A DNA stretch of 64,000 nucleotides from IMG/VR virus record IMGVR_UViG_2531839193_000016, one strand, 5' to 3'. Shown one piece after another: positions 30,001 to 39,000 of this stretch. Source of the DNA: a virus (Duplodnaviria > Heunggongvirae > Uroviricota > Caudoviricetes). Position numbers: made by a program. Position 1 is the first letter of the stretch; every line of letters starts with the position of its first letter.

Positions 30001-33000
30001 TGTGCGCTCATACACTCAAATTAAAGATAGGTTCTAAATAAATGAGCGTTTTTTGATAGTCTATTTCATTAGGTAGGTAATGACTCCAACTTATTGATAG
30101 TGTTTTATGTTCAGATAATGCCCGATGACTTTGTCATGCAGCTCCACCGATTTTGAGAACGACAGCGACTTCCGTCCCAGCCGTGCCAGGTGCTGCCTCA
30201 GATTCAGGTTATGCCGCTCAATTCGCTGCGTATATCGCTTGCTGATTACGTGCAGCTTTCCCTTCAGGCGGGATTCATACAGCGGCCAGCCATCCGTCAT
30301 CCATATCACCACGTCAAAGGGTGACAGCAGGCTCATAAGACGCCCCAGCGTCGCCATAGTGCGTTCACCGAATACGTGCGCAACAACCGTCTTCCGGAGA
30401 CTGTCATACGCGTAAAACAGCCAGCGCTGGCGCGATTTAGCCCCGACATAGCCCCACTGTTCGTCCATTTCCGCGCAGACGATGACGTCACTGCCCGGCT
30501 GTATGCGCGAGGTTACCGACTGCGGCCTGAGTTTTTAAGTGACGTAAAATCGTGTTGAGGCCAACGCCCATAATGCGTGCAGTTGCCCGGCATCCAACGC
30601 CATTCATGGCCATATCAATGATTTTCTGGTGCGTACCGGGTTGAGAAGCGGTGTAAGTGAACTGCAGTTGCCATGTTTTACGGCAGTGAGAGCAGAGATA
30701 GCGCTGATGTCCGGCAGTGCTTTTGCCGTTACGCACCACCCCGTCAGTAGCTGAACAGGAGGGACAGCTGATAGAAACAGAAGCCACTGGAGCACCTCAA
30801 AAACACCATCATACACTAAATCAGTAAGTTGGCAGCATCACCCATTAGGTAATATATATTTGTAACAAATCAATCAAAATGGAATAAAATCATGCTACCA
30901 TCTATTTCAATCAACAATACCAGCGCAACTTACCCAGAATCCATTAATGAAAATAACAATGATGAAGTTAATGGATTAGTACAAGAGCTCAAAAACCTTT
31001 TTAATGGTAAGGAAGGAATAAGCACCTGTATTAAACATCTACTTGAGCTTATAAAAAACGCCATACGAGTAAACGACGATCCTTAAGATTTAATATTAAT
31101 AATTCCTCAGTTACTTATATTGATATTGGCTCCAATGATACAGACCATATTACTATTGGTATCGACAACCAAGAACCAATAGAATTACCTGCGAACTATA
31201 AAGACAAAGAACTCGTCCGTACTATCATTAATGACAACATAGTTGAGAAGACTCATGATATCAATAACAAGGAAATGATCTTCAGCGCATTAAAAGAAAT
31301 ATATGATGGAGATCCTGGTTTTATCTTCGATAAGATATCACACAAACTCAGACATACGGTAACGGAATTTGATGAGAGCGGGAATAGCGAACCAACGGAC
31401 TTATTTACCTGGTACGGTAAAGATAAAAAAGGCAACTCTCTCGCTATTGTAATTAAAAATAAAAACGGAAATGATTACTTATCTCTCGGTTACTACGATC
31501 AGGACGACTACCACATTCAAAGAGGAATTCGTATTAATGGTGATAGTCTCACCCAATATTGTAGTGAAAAAGCCAGGAATGCTTCAGCAATGCTTCAGCG
31601 TGGTTTGAAAGCAGTAAAGCTATCATGGCAGAATCATTTGCAACAGGTTCCGATCATCAGGTTGTAAACGAGCTCAACGGGGAAAGACTGAGAGAACCTA
31701 ACGAAGTTTTTAAACGTTTAGGTCGAGCAATAAGATATAATTTTCAAGTGGACGATGCAAAATTTAGACGCGACAATGTAAAAGAAATAATTTCTAATTT
31801 ATTCGCTAACAAAGTTGACGTTGACCATCCTGAAAATAAATACAAAGACTTTAAGGATCTCGAAGATAACGTTGAAAAAAGACTTCAAAATCGCCAGGCG
31901 AAATATCAAAATGAAATTAATCAACTATCTGCGCCAGGTGTTAATTTTGATGATATTTAAAATTATTTTTCCAGTTTTTTGATTTTTCAACGCCTGAATA
32001 TCGGAAATAGTCAGTGACGAACATCAGTATTTTTACATCATTACGTCCGGGTCATTGTCGGTTTATCTCCTTTTACTTGTGGTAATTGAGGGATAACAAC
32101 AAAAAAGGTGAGTTTTGCGACTCACCTTTTTTATTTGTTTCTTATTCAGAATCAATATCTTTTAAATCATCCTGAATCGCTTGTGCGTTCGGATTTTCCT
32201 GCGGTTTGAGTTCGCCGCCATTAGCGATGAAATCATGACGCTGGAAGTACGCTTCGCGCACCATAATATAAGGATCGGACGACTGACGCAGCAGACCATC
32301 GGAATCCAGCAGCTGAGCGCGGGTTTCGATCCCTTCAAGCGTCCATTTACCCACAGACATCGGCCAGGTCAGCCAGGAAAGAACCGGGTAAAGACCATCC
32401 GCCATATCACCACCGTCATCACGCAGCGTGAAGCTACCGTAGAACGGTAACTGAACGTAAGGCCCATAACCCACGCCATAATGACCAAGCGTACTACCGA
32501 AGCGGTGAGGTTCAGTCCGTTGCAGTTTCGGGTTCGCCATCCCTGCAACATCAATAAAGCCGCCCATCCCCAAAATGGTGTTCAGGAAAAAGCGGGTAAA
32601 GTGGACCATCCCCTGATAAGGGTCGCCCTGCAAGAAGTAGTTAACCATCACCGCAGGTTCTTCAAGGTTGCCAGTAAAGTTGCTCAAACCATTACGCGCC
32701 GGTTGCGGAACATAATCACGCCAGGCGACAGCGACCGGTCGAACAATATACGGGTCTAATACGTTGAAGTTGAAGTTGTACATGGTGCGGTTGAACCCTT
32801 CTAACGGGTCAGAACGCCCTTGCTGATCTGTACCGGAACTCGCACACCCCACCAGAAGCGTAGTTCCCAGAGCAAGCGCCGACAGGCGAAGCTTCATAAA
32901 TGTCTCCCTGTTTTTTTATGGCTTATGCAGTTTGCCATCCATGACGGAACGATACCGTATCCGCCTGTTTAGGTGTGGGCGATTGTAACAGCACGTCAAC

Positions 33001-36000: not shown

Positions 36001-39000
36001 GGCAGTTCGCCAGAGAGTTGAATCTGGAGCCCTGCACAACGGCAATCAGCAGTCCTCAGAGTAATGGAATGGCAGAAAGGTTCGTGAAAACGATGAAGGA
36101 AGACTACATCGCGTTCATGCCGAAACCGAATGTAAGAACGGCATTGCATAATCTTGCAGTGGCGATCGAACATTACAATGAAAACCATCCGCACAGTGCG
36201 CTGGGTTATCGCTCTCCGCGAGAATATCGACGTCAGCGGGTAACGTTAACTTAAGATACACCCCCTGTCTGGAAATAAGGGGGCAAGAACAATGATCAGA
36301 TTCCCTGGTGAGTAAGAATTTTACTTTCTGAACTCCTCTGAGAGTATTGACTTGGAGAAACACCAAAATAACGTCTAAATACATAAGTAAAGTATGAGAC
36401 ACTGGCATAACCACAGACCTTAGCTACTTTACTAATAGGATAACAACGAGTGCTGAGTAAATATTCAGCCATTTGCATCCTCTCATCAAGTATGATCTTA
36501 CTGAATGATACCCCCTCTTCTTTCAATTTCATCTTTAGTAAACTTTCGCTGAGATATAATCTTGATGATATATCCTTAAGACGCCATGGTGCAGATAAAT
36601 CCGTATGAATAATCGTTTTAACTTTAGCCCTGTGCTTTTCAAACATCCAAACAGAAATACTCCAAATTGTTTTTCAGAAGAAAATGCAGAGAGACATGTA
36701 AAAGCAATAGACTCATCAAAAATTTCTATGTATTCAGCACAGTGATTAGCCCAACTAATTAATCCTTTAATTAAACTGAAGTCAGCAAAGTTTATTTTTA
36801 AATAAGATGGATATTCCCTACAATCAGAAATATCCCTTAAGTTATTAGCTTTCAAATAGCGACTAATAAACTCAGCGCCAAAATCCGCCACTATCACTCT
36901 TTCAGGATATGTCAGGAAAAAATCTCTAGAGCTAGAGTCGACAAGTACAGATGAACCTCTCTCCAGAAACACACTCTCTTTTCCGAAATAAACATCAAAG
37001 GACTCCAAAATCAATATAACTGAACATGTAGTTGCCATATCATCCACCCAATTGGTAATGACTCCAACTTATTGATAGTGTTTTATGTTCAGATAATGCC
37101 CGATGACTTTGTCATGCAGCTCCACCGATTTTGAGAACGACAGCGACTTCCGTCCCAGCCGTGCCAGGTGCTGCCTCAGATTCAGGTTATGCCGCTCAAT
37201 TCGCTGCGTATATCGCTTGCTGATTACGTGCAGCTTTCCCTTCAGGCGGGATTCATACAGCGGCCAGCCATCCGTCATCCATATCACCACGTCAAAGGGT
37301 GACAGCAGGCTCATAAGACGCCCCAGCGTCGCCATAGTGCGTTCACCGAATACGTGCGCAACAACCGTCTTCCGGAGACTGTCATACGCGTAAAACAGCC
37401 AGCGCTGGCGCGATTTAGCCCCGACATAGCCCCACTGTTCGTCCATTTCCGCGCAGACGATGACGTCACTGCCCGGCTGTATGCGCGAGGTTACCGACTG
37501 CGGCCTGAGTTTTTTAAGTGACGTAAAATCGTGTTGAGGCCAACGCCCATAATGCGTGCTGTTGCCCGGCATCCAACGCCATTCATGGCCATATCAATGA
37601 TTTTCTGGTGCGTACCGGGTTGAGAAGCGGTGTAAGTGAACTGCAGTTGCCATGTTTTACGGCAGTGAGAGCAGAGATAGCGCTGATGTCCGGCAGTGCT
37701 TTTGCCGTTACGCACCACCCCGTCAGTAGCTGAACAGGAGGGACAGCTGATAGAAACAGAAGCCACTGGAGCACCTCAAAAACACCATCATACACTAAAT
37801 CAGTAAGTTGGCAGCATCACCAGCCTTCTTGAGGCTACCACCTGTTTTCAGGTGTCATTCAGACGTGATTTGCCCCAGATTGGGAAAGCACGCTTTTTTC
37901 TCAGCTATCGTCCTCTTATTTTGCCGTTACATTTCTTTTTGCACTCTAATGATTAATTTACAATAATAATATCGGTAATTATTGAGTAATAATAAATTGA
38001 TTATTGCAAATGTAATTTAATTCCATCTTCGCGTTATATTCCAATCTTTAATCTCCGCATGGAACAAGTTGCATGCGTGACTATATTAAGACAACTTATA
38101 ACCACCAAAACATTTGCTTTGCAAGCAAAAACAGTGACCATTGACTCTAAGAAAATTCCGATCTATTGTTAGGGTCATCAAAGTTACTTAACAGTATTCC
38201 GAAATGAAAATACAAAGCAAGCTAATTGTCTTATTAAACATTATTATTGCATTTATATTATTTGAGCTTTTAGCTCAAAAATTTGGTTTGAGTACATTAT
38301 TTTAAAGCAAGATAAACAATATCGGGCACTCTAGTTTTTATAATTAACAATTAAACGTCCATAAAATGTTATTTACTTTTCTTCGCTATTGTCATATCTT
38401 AATATAGTGGCTTACGCCACTCTACTTTCATCACATTTTGTACGTTTATGTACTCGCCATGAAGCTCTTTCATGGCGATTTTTTATTCTTAATCCAAGAA
38501 CATACTCCCTACCTATAGCAAAATCACTTTTTTAACAAAAGAATAACGTATTTAGGTAATCATTACGAATTTACCCTATAGGTGCTACTGGCCATTCAAT
38601 ATCCGGTGCAGTTGATGTATCAACACGGTTCAGCAACACCCGATACTTTTTCCAGGCTTCCAGCAACAAGGTTTCTTTCTCCGTTGCGATCTCCAGATCC
38701 ACAGCATCCTGAAGCGGCGCTATATGCTCACTGGCTACCTGCATCAGGCTGTTTTTTGTTTCTTCCGCCTCCCGGATCCGGAACAGTTTTTCTGCTTCCG
38801 TATCCTTCACCCAGGCTGTGCCGTTCCACTTCTGAAACTCCCCTTCCGGGGATAACCAGGTGACATTTTCCGGTAATGAGCCGAGTTCAGAAATAAATAA
38901 CGCGTCGCCGGAAGCCACGTCATAAACCGTTTTACCCCGATGATCTTCAACGAGATGCCACGATGACTCATCACTGTTGAAAACAGCCACGAAACCAGCC

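What the first reader, a model, noticed from the sequence alone, without database searches (positions are those of the whole stretch)
30076..37821. Two direct IS1 copies bracket the argW backbone; the second marks a rearrangement
IS1 copy 2 has no target duplication, and beyond it lies 750 bp of AT-rich DNA and then the tail-fibre end of a lambda-like prophage. That prophage end normally adjoins the b region and integrase, not a chromosomal regulator. The layout suggests an IS1-mediated deletion or inversion removed the rest of the prophage. The two direct copies could also mobilise or delete the 6.2-kb segment (yfdF-like, mlaA, yfdC, argW, intS) between them.
Basis: partly seen in the sequence, partly recalled or inferred. 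Interest (0 to 1): 0.45.

Follow-up and report, generated by a model that had tools for sequence, protein, structure and literature searches.

The report
IS1 with small adjacent deletion
Two copies of the common jumping gene IS1 flank the argW tRNA region of a Shigella sonnei chromosome; the second copy deleted only 741 bp of neighbouring prophage DNA and did not remove a prophage, so this is ordinary.

Summary
There are two direct IS1 copies, at 30076-30842 and 37054-37821. Copy 1 has a perfect 9-bp target duplication (CATTAGGTA). Copy 2 has none (CACCCAATT | AGCCTTCTT). Beyond copy 2 lie 749 bp of 31.6% G+C DNA and then tfa, stf, lom and J on the minus strand.

The interpretation mostly fails. 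An IS1-free E. coli (strain 700462) has the same order at argW: argW, intS, IS3-family fragments, AraC-family gene, AT-rich DNA, tfa, stf. The two flanks of copy 2 lie 741 bp apart there, collinear and in the same orientation. The only loss at copy 2 is therefore a 741-bp adjacent deletion. Up to 79 complete E. coli genomes share the exact right junction, with nested left endpoints, which is the classic IS1 adjacent-deletion pattern.

The "chromosomal regulator" is prophage cargo. It travels with the tail-fibre end at argW and at the lambda attachment site next to bioA. In E. coli F404 a complete lambdoid prophage at argW has intS next to the tail fibres, so that layout is native.

The window matches S. 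sonnei (99.97% to 53G), where both IS1 copies sit at the same sites. I found no evidence that the 6.2-kb segment has moved as a unit or been deleted. Interest is low.

The parts
28530..29988 (+). ISEc20 (IS110 family) insertion between the fadL side and yfdF. It is not part of the IS1 pair, but it is part of the IS-riddled context.
   Evidence: 1459 bp absent from L001, L002 and L004. Pfam DEDD_Tnp_IS110 and Transposase_20 match two overlapping ORFs. Annotated as ISEc20 in E. coli hits.
30076..30842 (-). IS1 copy 1. A simple insertion 49 bp upstream of the yfdF start. 767 bp, with A5C instead of the A6C frameshift motif.
   Evidence: 9-bp duplication CATTAGGTA on both sides, and the empty site is present in L001, L002 and L004. 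The 1-bp deletion is shown.
30843..37053 (.). The 6211-bp inter-IS1 segment: yfdF pseudogene (30892 to about 31960), mlaA (32142-32897, minus), yfdC (33191-34123), argW (34199-34273), intS (34435-35592), IS3-family fragments (35592-36254) and a frameshifted AraC-family gene (36296-37038, minus).
   Evidence: Collinear with the E. coli fadL-yfdF-mlaA-yfdC-argW-intS region at 99% identity. Supported by tRNA, Pfam and the S. sonnei gene calls.
37054..37821 (-). IS1 copy 2. 768 bp, with canonical insA, A6C motif and insB'. No target duplication. Its left end abuts a 741-bp deletion 15 bp upstream of the AraC start codon.
   Evidence: Flanks are CACCCAATT and AGCCTTCTT. The flanks map to L002 11968 and 12710. 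The reading frames are intact.
37822..38570 (.). AT-rich terminal segment of the lambdoid prophage, lying between its former attachment arm and tfa.
   Evidence: 31.6% G+C. 96.7% identical to the equivalent segment of a serU-integrated prophage in E. coli O177:H21, L009 7451-8199.
38571..46384 (-). Tail-fibre end of the lambda-like prophage: tfa 38571-39152, stf 39152-42241, lom 42334-42816, J 42887-46384.
   Evidence: ORFs. Caudo_TAP. Annotated homologues in L001 and L002. Pfam labels of the identical S. sonnei genes.

Best explanation
This is the argW region of a Shigella sonnei chromosome. IS1 copy 1 is a plain insertion upstream of yfdF.

IS1 copy 2 sits in the accessory (b-type) region of a lambdoid prophage that is integrated at argW through its own integrase, IntS. 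That IS1 inserted into AT-rich prophage DNA, most likely at the site now marked by its fixed right junction (IS1 | AGCCTTCTT). Intramolecular IS1 transposition from its left end then removed adjacent DNA. In this lineage the net loss is 741 bp and the IS1 now lies 15 bp upstream of a prophage-borne AraC-family gene. The IS1 is kept, one flank is unchanged, and the target duplication is lost.

The gene order (integrase, cargo, tail fibres) is native to this prophage family, so no large part of the prophage was removed at this point.

Shown: both junctions, the 741-bp difference from the IS1-free allele, the shared right junction with nested left endpoints, and the mobility of the module between attachment sites. 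Inferred: the original insertion site, the transposition mechanism, and whether the deletions were sequential or independent.
For: - The two flanks of copy 2 are collinear, in the same orientation and 741 bp apart in IS1-free E. coli 700462.
- The same right junction is found in ETEC1746, 64.1, PI7 and Res13-Lact-ER02-39. Their left junctions fall at L002 positions 12159, 12102 and 11968 and at window 36290.
- Up to 79 complete genomes carry the right junction.
- F404 has further loss on both sides.
- The exact window-type pair of junctions also occurs at the bioA-ybhB locus, in L006 at 99.1% over 35509-39021. The event therefore belongs to the prophage module and not to this chromosomal site.
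- F404 carries a complete prophage between argW-intS and an argW-like 3' repeat next to dsdC.
- The literature attributes missing target duplications to adjacent deletions or to IS-IS recombination, and reports adjacent deletions that grow stepwise (PMC11708052).
- IS1 is the dominant expanded insertion sequence in S. sonnei (PMC7373316).
Against: - No sampled complete E. coli genome keeps the postulated ancestral simple insertion with an AGCCTTCTT duplication on both sides (0 genomes). The original insertion point and the direction of the first deletion are therefore inferred.
- Sequence alone cannot separate intramolecular transposition from recombination between two nearby IS1 copies.
- The far end of the prophage lies outside the window, so its completeness in this strain is unknown.
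Confidence: 0.85

Rival explanations
1. Copy 2 is the product of homologous recombination between two separate IS1 insertions about 741 bp apart in direct orientation. One would have had the duplication CACCCAATT and the other AGCCTTCTT. Recombination deleted the DNA between them and left a hybrid IS1 with mismatched flanks.
For: This is a recognised cause of missing target duplications (PMC11708052). AT-rich DNA is a favoured IS1 target, so two hits close together are conceivable. The outcome, a 741-bp loss with collinear flanks, would look identical.
Against: The right junction is constant while at least four different left endpoints exist. That would need a separate extra IS1 insertion plus a recombination for each endpoint. 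No genome with two IS1 copies in this interval was seen among the loci I examined.
Confidence: 0.1
2. One reading: an IS1-mediated large deletion or inversion at copy 2 joined a chromosomal regulator to an unrelated prophage tail-fibre end and removed the rest of the prophage.
For: Copy 2 lacks a target duplication. This very IS1 did mediate a large rearrangement in another strain. In STEC409 the intS-AraC-IS1 half lies beside the distal part of htrE at 3.66 Mb. The half carrying the proximal part of htrE, then IS1, AT-rich DNA and tfa, lies at 1.41 Mb on the other strand.
Against: IS1-free genomes have the same AraC, AT-rich, tfa order. The AraC block accompanies the tail-fibre end at two different attachment sites. 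A complete prophage with this order exists in F404. At least 25 kb of the prophage region continues to the right in the window.
Confidence: 0.03
3. The two direct IS1 copies and the 6.2 kb between them form a Tn9-like composite transposon that arrived at, or can leave, this site as a unit.
For: The copies are in direct orientation, the outer ends are intact, and copy 2 has intact insA, A6C and insB'.
Against: The outer flanks (CATTAGGTA on the left, AGCCTTCTT on the right) share no duplication. The enclosed genes are in their native backbone order as in other E. coli. Copy 1 has its own private duplication. No complete E. coli genome has copy 1 at this site. Both copies sit at the same sites in two complete S. 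sonnei genomes. Copy 1 has lost the A6C slippery motif in this strain.
Confidence: 0.02

Closest known systems
IS1 adjacent deletions (intramolecular IS1 transposition, classically described at the gal operon in the 1970s; recalled from my own knowledge, with the general concept in PMC11708052)
   Same: The IS is retained, one junction is fixed, DNA next to the other end is lost to variable endpoints, there is no target duplication, and the region is AT-rich.
   Different: This case is seen only by comparing natural genomes, not in an experiment. The ancestral simple insertion was not sampled. The IS1 sits in a prophage accessory region that moves between attachment sites.
IS expansion and IS-driven genome decay in Shigella sonnei (PMC7373316; PMC8072062)
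   Same: IS1 is the dominant IS. ISEc20 is also on the S. sonnei 53G list of insertion sequences. The neighbouring genes are pseudogenes (yfdF and the AraC-family gene).
   Different: Copy 2 and its deletion are also found in non-Shigella E. coli at another locus. This copy was therefore probably inherited with the prophage module and was not generated in the S. sonnei expansion.
Tn9-type composite transposon (direct IS1 repeats flanking cargo)
   Same: Two direct IS1 copies bracket a 6.2-kb segment.
   Different: There is no duplication around the unit, the cargo is native backbone in its native place, and there is no sign that the unit ever moved.
CPS-53 (KpLE1) and other IntS-type prophages at argW in E. 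coli K-12 (layout recalled from my own knowledge)
   Same: argW followed by intS transcribed away from the tRNA, then cargo, then tail-fibre genes on the opposite strand.
   Different: The cargo here is an AraC-family gene and IS debris, not the gtr genes. The late region is lambda-like and extensive.
Prophage-encoded AraC-like regulators at lambdoid prophage ends (PsrA, PsrB, PatE; AppY of DLP12): PMC10877973, PMC10057817
   Same: An AT-rich AraC-family gene in the accessory region of a lambdoid prophage.
   Different: Homology to those particular regulators was not tested here. The gene is frameshifted in this window.

Membership tests
IS1 insertion sequence | About 768 bp with 23-bp imperfect terminal inverted repeats | tested here: met
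   767 and 768 bp. GGTGATGCTGCCAACTTACTGAT and GGTAATGACTCCAACTTATTGAT are found at both ends of both copies.
IS1 insertion sequence | insA and insB' reading frames joined by a -1 frameshift at A6C | tested here: met
   Copy 2 is canonical, with a 91-aa InsA, the A6C motif and an open InsB' frame. Copy 1 has A5C, so the canonical slip is lost. Pfam InsA and DDE_Tnp_IS1 labels are recorded on the gene calls for the equivalent IS1 copies in S. sonnei.
IS1 insertion sequence | 9-bp target-site duplication | tested here: met
   Copy 1 has CATTAGGTA on both sides. Copy 2 has none, which is explained by the adjacent deletion.
IS-mediated adjacent deletion | The flanks of the IS are collinear in an IS-free allele but separated there by extra DNA next to one IS end | tested here: met
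   L002 positions 11968 and 12710, with 741 bp between them.
IS-mediated adjacent deletion | One junction is constant and the other varies among relatives | tested here: met
   The right junction is shared by L004, L005, L006, L007 and the window, and by up to 79 genomes. There are four different left endpoints.
IS-mediated adjacent deletion | An ancestral simple insertion with a target duplication at the fixed junction | tested here: not met
   A constructed ancestral left junction found 0 genomes at 80% coverage or more among 5426. It may simply be unsampled.
Composite (Tn9-like) transposon | A target duplication flanking the whole unit, or the unit present at a non-native site | tested here: not met
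   The outer flanks differ. The enclosed genes are in native E. coli order.
Lambdoid prophage integrated at argW by IntS | A tyrosine integrase next to the intact tRNA (attL) | tested here: met
   argW at 34199-34273. IntS at 34435-35592 has arm-binding, central and catalytic integrase domains.
Lambdoid prophage integrated at argW by IntS | A partial tRNA repeat (attR) at the far end, beside the normal downstream chromosome | not testable with these tools
   The window ends inside the prophage. In the relative F404 an argW-like 3' repeat (24 of 30 nt identical, counted by eye from the sequence printed) lies next to dsdC. In 700462 there is an exact 20-nt repeat.

The most novel reading that the evidence does not exclude
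IS1 copy 2 may not be a product of the S. sonnei IS1 burst. It may be a long-standing passenger of a lambdoid phage genome. The same IS1, at the same right junction, sits in the accessory region of related prophages at argW and at the lambda attachment site in dozens of E. coli lineages. This suggests that a packaged phage, or prophage-prophage recombination, spreads the IS1 between hosts and attachment sites. The nested deletions would then record erosion inside the phage genome. That erosion includes loss of a fossil serU attachment site together with 278 bp of captured yodB-serU host DNA, which is still present in IS1-free relatives.
Probability: 0.35. Interest if true: 0.3.

Novelty: already known. 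Interest (0 to 1): 0.1.

Why it matters
It matters little beyond annotation. It shows that a missing target duplication next to a prophage is not by itself evidence of a large rearrangement. Comparison with an IS-free allele reduced the event to 741 bp. It also corrects the labelling of the AraC-family gene, which is prophage cargo and not chromosomal backbone. As a by-product it gives a clean natural series of IS1 adjacent deletions, and in STEC409 an example of the same IS1 involved in a real megabase-scale rearrangement. For S. sonnei genomics, the two IS1 copies explain the recurrent 6.4-kb contig that breaks draft assemblies at argW.

Tried and rejected
- I searched for the ancestral simple insertion (L002 flank up to 12718 joined to the IS1 end). 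No genome had it.
- I searched for complete E. coli genomes that share copy 1. None did; the ISEc20 insertion is shared by some, but not the IS1.
- I considered a chromosomal inversion or translocation between the serU and argW loci to explain the serU fragment found in relatives. I rejected it for the window's relatives because 700462 and F404 have normal chromosomal neighbours on both sides of the argW island.
- I considered that S. sonnei might hold a second copy of the module at bioA. L013, from an unidentified assembly, is 100% identical over 35509-37084. The 6426-bp IS1-to-IS1 contig that assembles in many samples argues for a single copy (my inference). This is not resolved.
- An Rfam scan of 28-43 kb found only argW and an IS009 match inside tfa.
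- A promoter and terminator scan of the AT-rich segment gave counts near chance.
- The left-junction count was not usable as a count of window-type junctions, because BLAST joined pieces across the extra 191 bp of the 64.1-type allele.
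Full report
**1. What is in the sequence**

A repeat search and a pairwise alignment show two IS1 elements in direct orientation, at 30076-30842 and 37054-37821. They differ by one substitution and by one missing base in the T6 run (A6 on the coding strand).

Both have the IS1 terminal repeats, and no other IS1 ends occur in the window. Copy 2 has the canonical arrangement: a 91-aa InsA, the A6C slippery motif, and InsB' in the -1 frame. Copy 1 has A5C, so the InsA frame runs into a foreign 99-aa product and the InsB' frame is no longer reachable by a -1 slip. 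That 1-bp loss is strain-level variation. It is present in a second S. sonnei genome (L012) but absent from 53G.

Copy 1 is flanked by a perfect 9-bp duplication, CATTAGGTA. Copy 2 is flanked by CACCCAATT and AGCCTTCTT, with no duplication.

To the right of copy 2 come 749 bp at 31.6% G+C, against 53.9% for the window. Then come tfa, a 1029-aa tail fibre, lom and J. Further minus-strand ORFs follow in the order and sizes of lambda late genes, out to about 61.7 kb.

**2. Source and context**

The frameshifted AraC-family product is encoded in Shigella sonnei genomes. 53G (HE616528.1, L011) matches window 28414-47103 at 99.97%, and L012 matches at 99.98%. Both IS1 copies sit at the same sites in both. 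A 6426-bp contig running from IS1 to IS1 recurs in many draft assemblies. I read this as the bracket being widespread in the sequenced population.

To the left of 28414 the window holds a Mu-like prophage, with a Mom-family protein at 27353-28285. 53G and L012 lack it, and fadL lies there instead.

Between the Mu-like prophage and copy 1 lies an ISEc20 (IS110 family) element at 28530-29988.

Copy 1 is a simple insertion into the fadL-yfdF intergenic region, 49 bp upstream of yfdF. The empty site is present in three E. coli loci. yfdF itself is broken into three ORFs.

**3. What happened at copy 2**

E. coli 700462 (L002) has no IS1 here. It has the same order at argW: argW, intS, a transposase fragment, an AraC-family gene, AT-rich DNA, tfa, stf, lom and J.

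The left flank of copy 2 ends at L002 11968 and the right flank begins at L002 12710. Both boundaries are unambiguous at the base level. The flanks are collinear and in the same orientation. The window therefore lacks 741 bp and carries IS1 in their place. 101 complete E. coli genomes hold the IS1-free stretch.

Other genomes carry an IS1 at the identical right junction (IS1 | AGCCTTCTT) but with different left junctions:
- strain 64.1: L002 12159
- PI7: L002 12102
- the window and Res13-Lact-ER02-39: L002 11968
- ETEC1746: window 36290, where the whole AraC gene is gone

Up to 79 complete genomes share the right junction. F404 has lost a little more on both sides.

One constant junction with nested endpoints on the other side, the IS retained and no target duplication is the textbook outcome of IS-mediated adjacent deletion. 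The literature lists adjacent deletion and IS-IS recombination as the usual reasons for a missing duplication, and describes adjacent deletions that grow stepwise (PMC11708052).

I could not find the postulated ancestor, a simple insertion with AGCCTTCTT on both sides, in 5426 genomes. The first step is therefore inferred.

**4. Why the layout is not a large rearrangement**

There are three independent lines of evidence.

(a) The IS1-free allele has the same gene order.

(b) The block that starts 84 bp before the end of intS (window 35509) runs through the IS3-family fragments, the AraC-family gene, IS1 and the AT-rich DNA to tfa and stf. This block also occurs next to ybhB-bioA, the lambda attachment site, in strains 64.1, PI7 and Res13. 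The Res13 copy has exactly the window's pair of IS1 junctions (99.1% over 35509-39021). The AraC-family gene therefore belongs to the prophage accessory region and not to the argW chromosomal backbone. The IS1 and its deletion belong to that module.

(c) In F404 a complete lambdoid prophage of about 51 kb lies between argW-intS and dsdC. It runs from the tail fibres through the head and lysis genes, Q, the replication genes, the repressor, and exo-bet-gam. An argW-like 3' repeat (24 of 30 nt identical, counted by eye from the printed sequence) lies at the far end. 700462 has an exact 20-nt repeat.

In this phage family the attachment site lies upstream of int. The prophage therefore has int, cargo and tail fibres together at one end, as in the K-12 argW element CPS-53 (the latter recalled from my own knowledge).

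**5. What the 741 bp contained**

In IS1-free relatives the deleted interval holds the last 62 nt of tRNA-Ser serU plus 278 bp of the yodB-serU intergenic region (L002 12260-12599). This stretch matches the serU locus of almost every E. coli.

In E. coli O177:H21 a related prophage sits at serU, with yodB, this same stretch, the AT-rich DNA and tfa in unbroken order. The window's AT-rich 749 bp is therefore the native terminal segment of a serU-integrating lambdoid phage. The relatives preserve a fossil attR with captured host DNA, joined to an AraC and IntS module.

I infer an old aberrant excision or a module exchange. This is not tested, and the fossil is gone from the window.

**6.

In STEC409 the same IS1 has taken part in a real large rearrangement. 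The half carrying argW, intS, AraC and IS1 is followed by the distal part of htrE and by yadM to panC, at 3.66 Mb. The half carrying pcnB to the proximal part of htrE, then IS1, AT-rich DNA and tfa, lies at 1.41 Mb on the other strand.

That is what an IS1-mediated inversion looks like with these tools. The window does not look like that.

**7. The composite-transposon or deletion idea**

The two copies are direct, 99.7% identical, and have intact outer ends. Homologous recombination could therefore delete 6,978 bp, and transposition of the whole unit is conceivable.

Against any past movement:
- the outer flanks share no duplication;
- the cargo is native backbone in its native order;
- copy 1 has its own private duplication;
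- no complete E. coli genome has copy 1 at this site;
- both copies sit at the same sites in two complete S. sonnei genomes.

This remains a generic possibility, not a finding.

**8. Verdict**

This is an ordinary, already understood phenomenon in a published species. One IS1 is a simple insertion. The other is an IS1 with a 741-bp adjacent deletion inside prophage cargo, probably inherited with the prophage module and not generated in place.

Interest is 0.1.

Noticed in passing
window 1-28413: A Mu-like prophage (tape measure, DUF935, tail sheath; Mom-family protein at 27353-28285) ends about 122 bp from where fadL lies in S. sonnei 53G and L012. Those two genomes lack it at this site, so it is a strain-specific insertion. 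Only 266 of 5426 E. coli genomes have any match to it.
   Followed up: partly
window 28530-29988: ISEc20 (IS110 family) insertion between the fadL side and yfdF. Its transposase is split into two overlapping ORFs (203 and 224 aa). Several E. coli genomes have ISEc20 at what looks like the same place, next to yfdF, without the IS1.
   Followed up: partly
window 30076-30842 (the T run in the middle of the element): IS1 copy 1 has lost one base of the A6C programmed-frameshift motif (now A5C), so it probably cannot make the InsAB' transposase. The loss is shared with S. sonnei L012 but is not in 53G.
   Followed up: yes
window 30892-31960 and 36296-37038: yfdF is broken into three ORFs (64, 130 and 111 aa). 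The prophage AraC-family gene carries a 1-bp frameshift (167-aa and 58-aa products in S. sonnei). Both are typical Shigella pseudogenes.
   Followed up: partly
L002 12260-12599 (deleted from the window at 37053/37054): IS1-free relatives keep a fossil attR inside the prophage accessory region. It consists of the last 62 nt of tRNA-Ser serU plus 278 bp of yodB-serU intergenic DNA. This shows that the tail-fibre module once sat in a serU-integrated prophage (natural example: O177:H21, L009).
   Followed up: yes
L019 and L020 (E. coli STEC409, 3.66 Mb and 1.41 Mb): The orthologous IS1 is duplicated at the two ends of what looks like a 2.25-Mb inversion. The inversion splits htrE and separates intS-AraC from the tail-fibre genes.
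   Followed up: partly
window 35509-35592; L005 2605-2688: Prophages at the bioA-ybhB (lambda attachment) site retain just the last 84 bp of intS at the edge of the shared module. This marks a breakpoint where the integration module was exchanged between phages.
   Followed up: partly
L008 (E. coli O157:H7 Z1812) 7833-9699: The same unit (AraC gene, IS fragment, yodB-serU DNA and the partial serU) lies between a P4-like element and a different prophage (pinE, invertible tail fibres). The AraC-to-serU joint is therefore older than any one phage.
   Followed up: no
window 38611-38809 (minus strand): Rfam family IS009 (RF02111) matches at 218 bits inside the tfa coding sequence.
   Followed up: no
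window 42334-42816; 48787-51347; 38965-39029: Signs of prophage decay or variation. lom is 160 aa here against 199 aa in F404. In the position where lambda carries its tape-measure gene there are two ORFs of 414 and 373 aa instead of one long gene. tfa differs from 53G by a 63-bp indel.
   Followed up: no
L013 (GCA_001256535.1 contig, bio locus): An unidentified assembly with fragmented bio genes carries the module at ybhB-bioA. It is 100% identical to window 35509-37084, including the AraC frameshift. I could not establish its species or its relation to S. sonnei.
   Followed up: no
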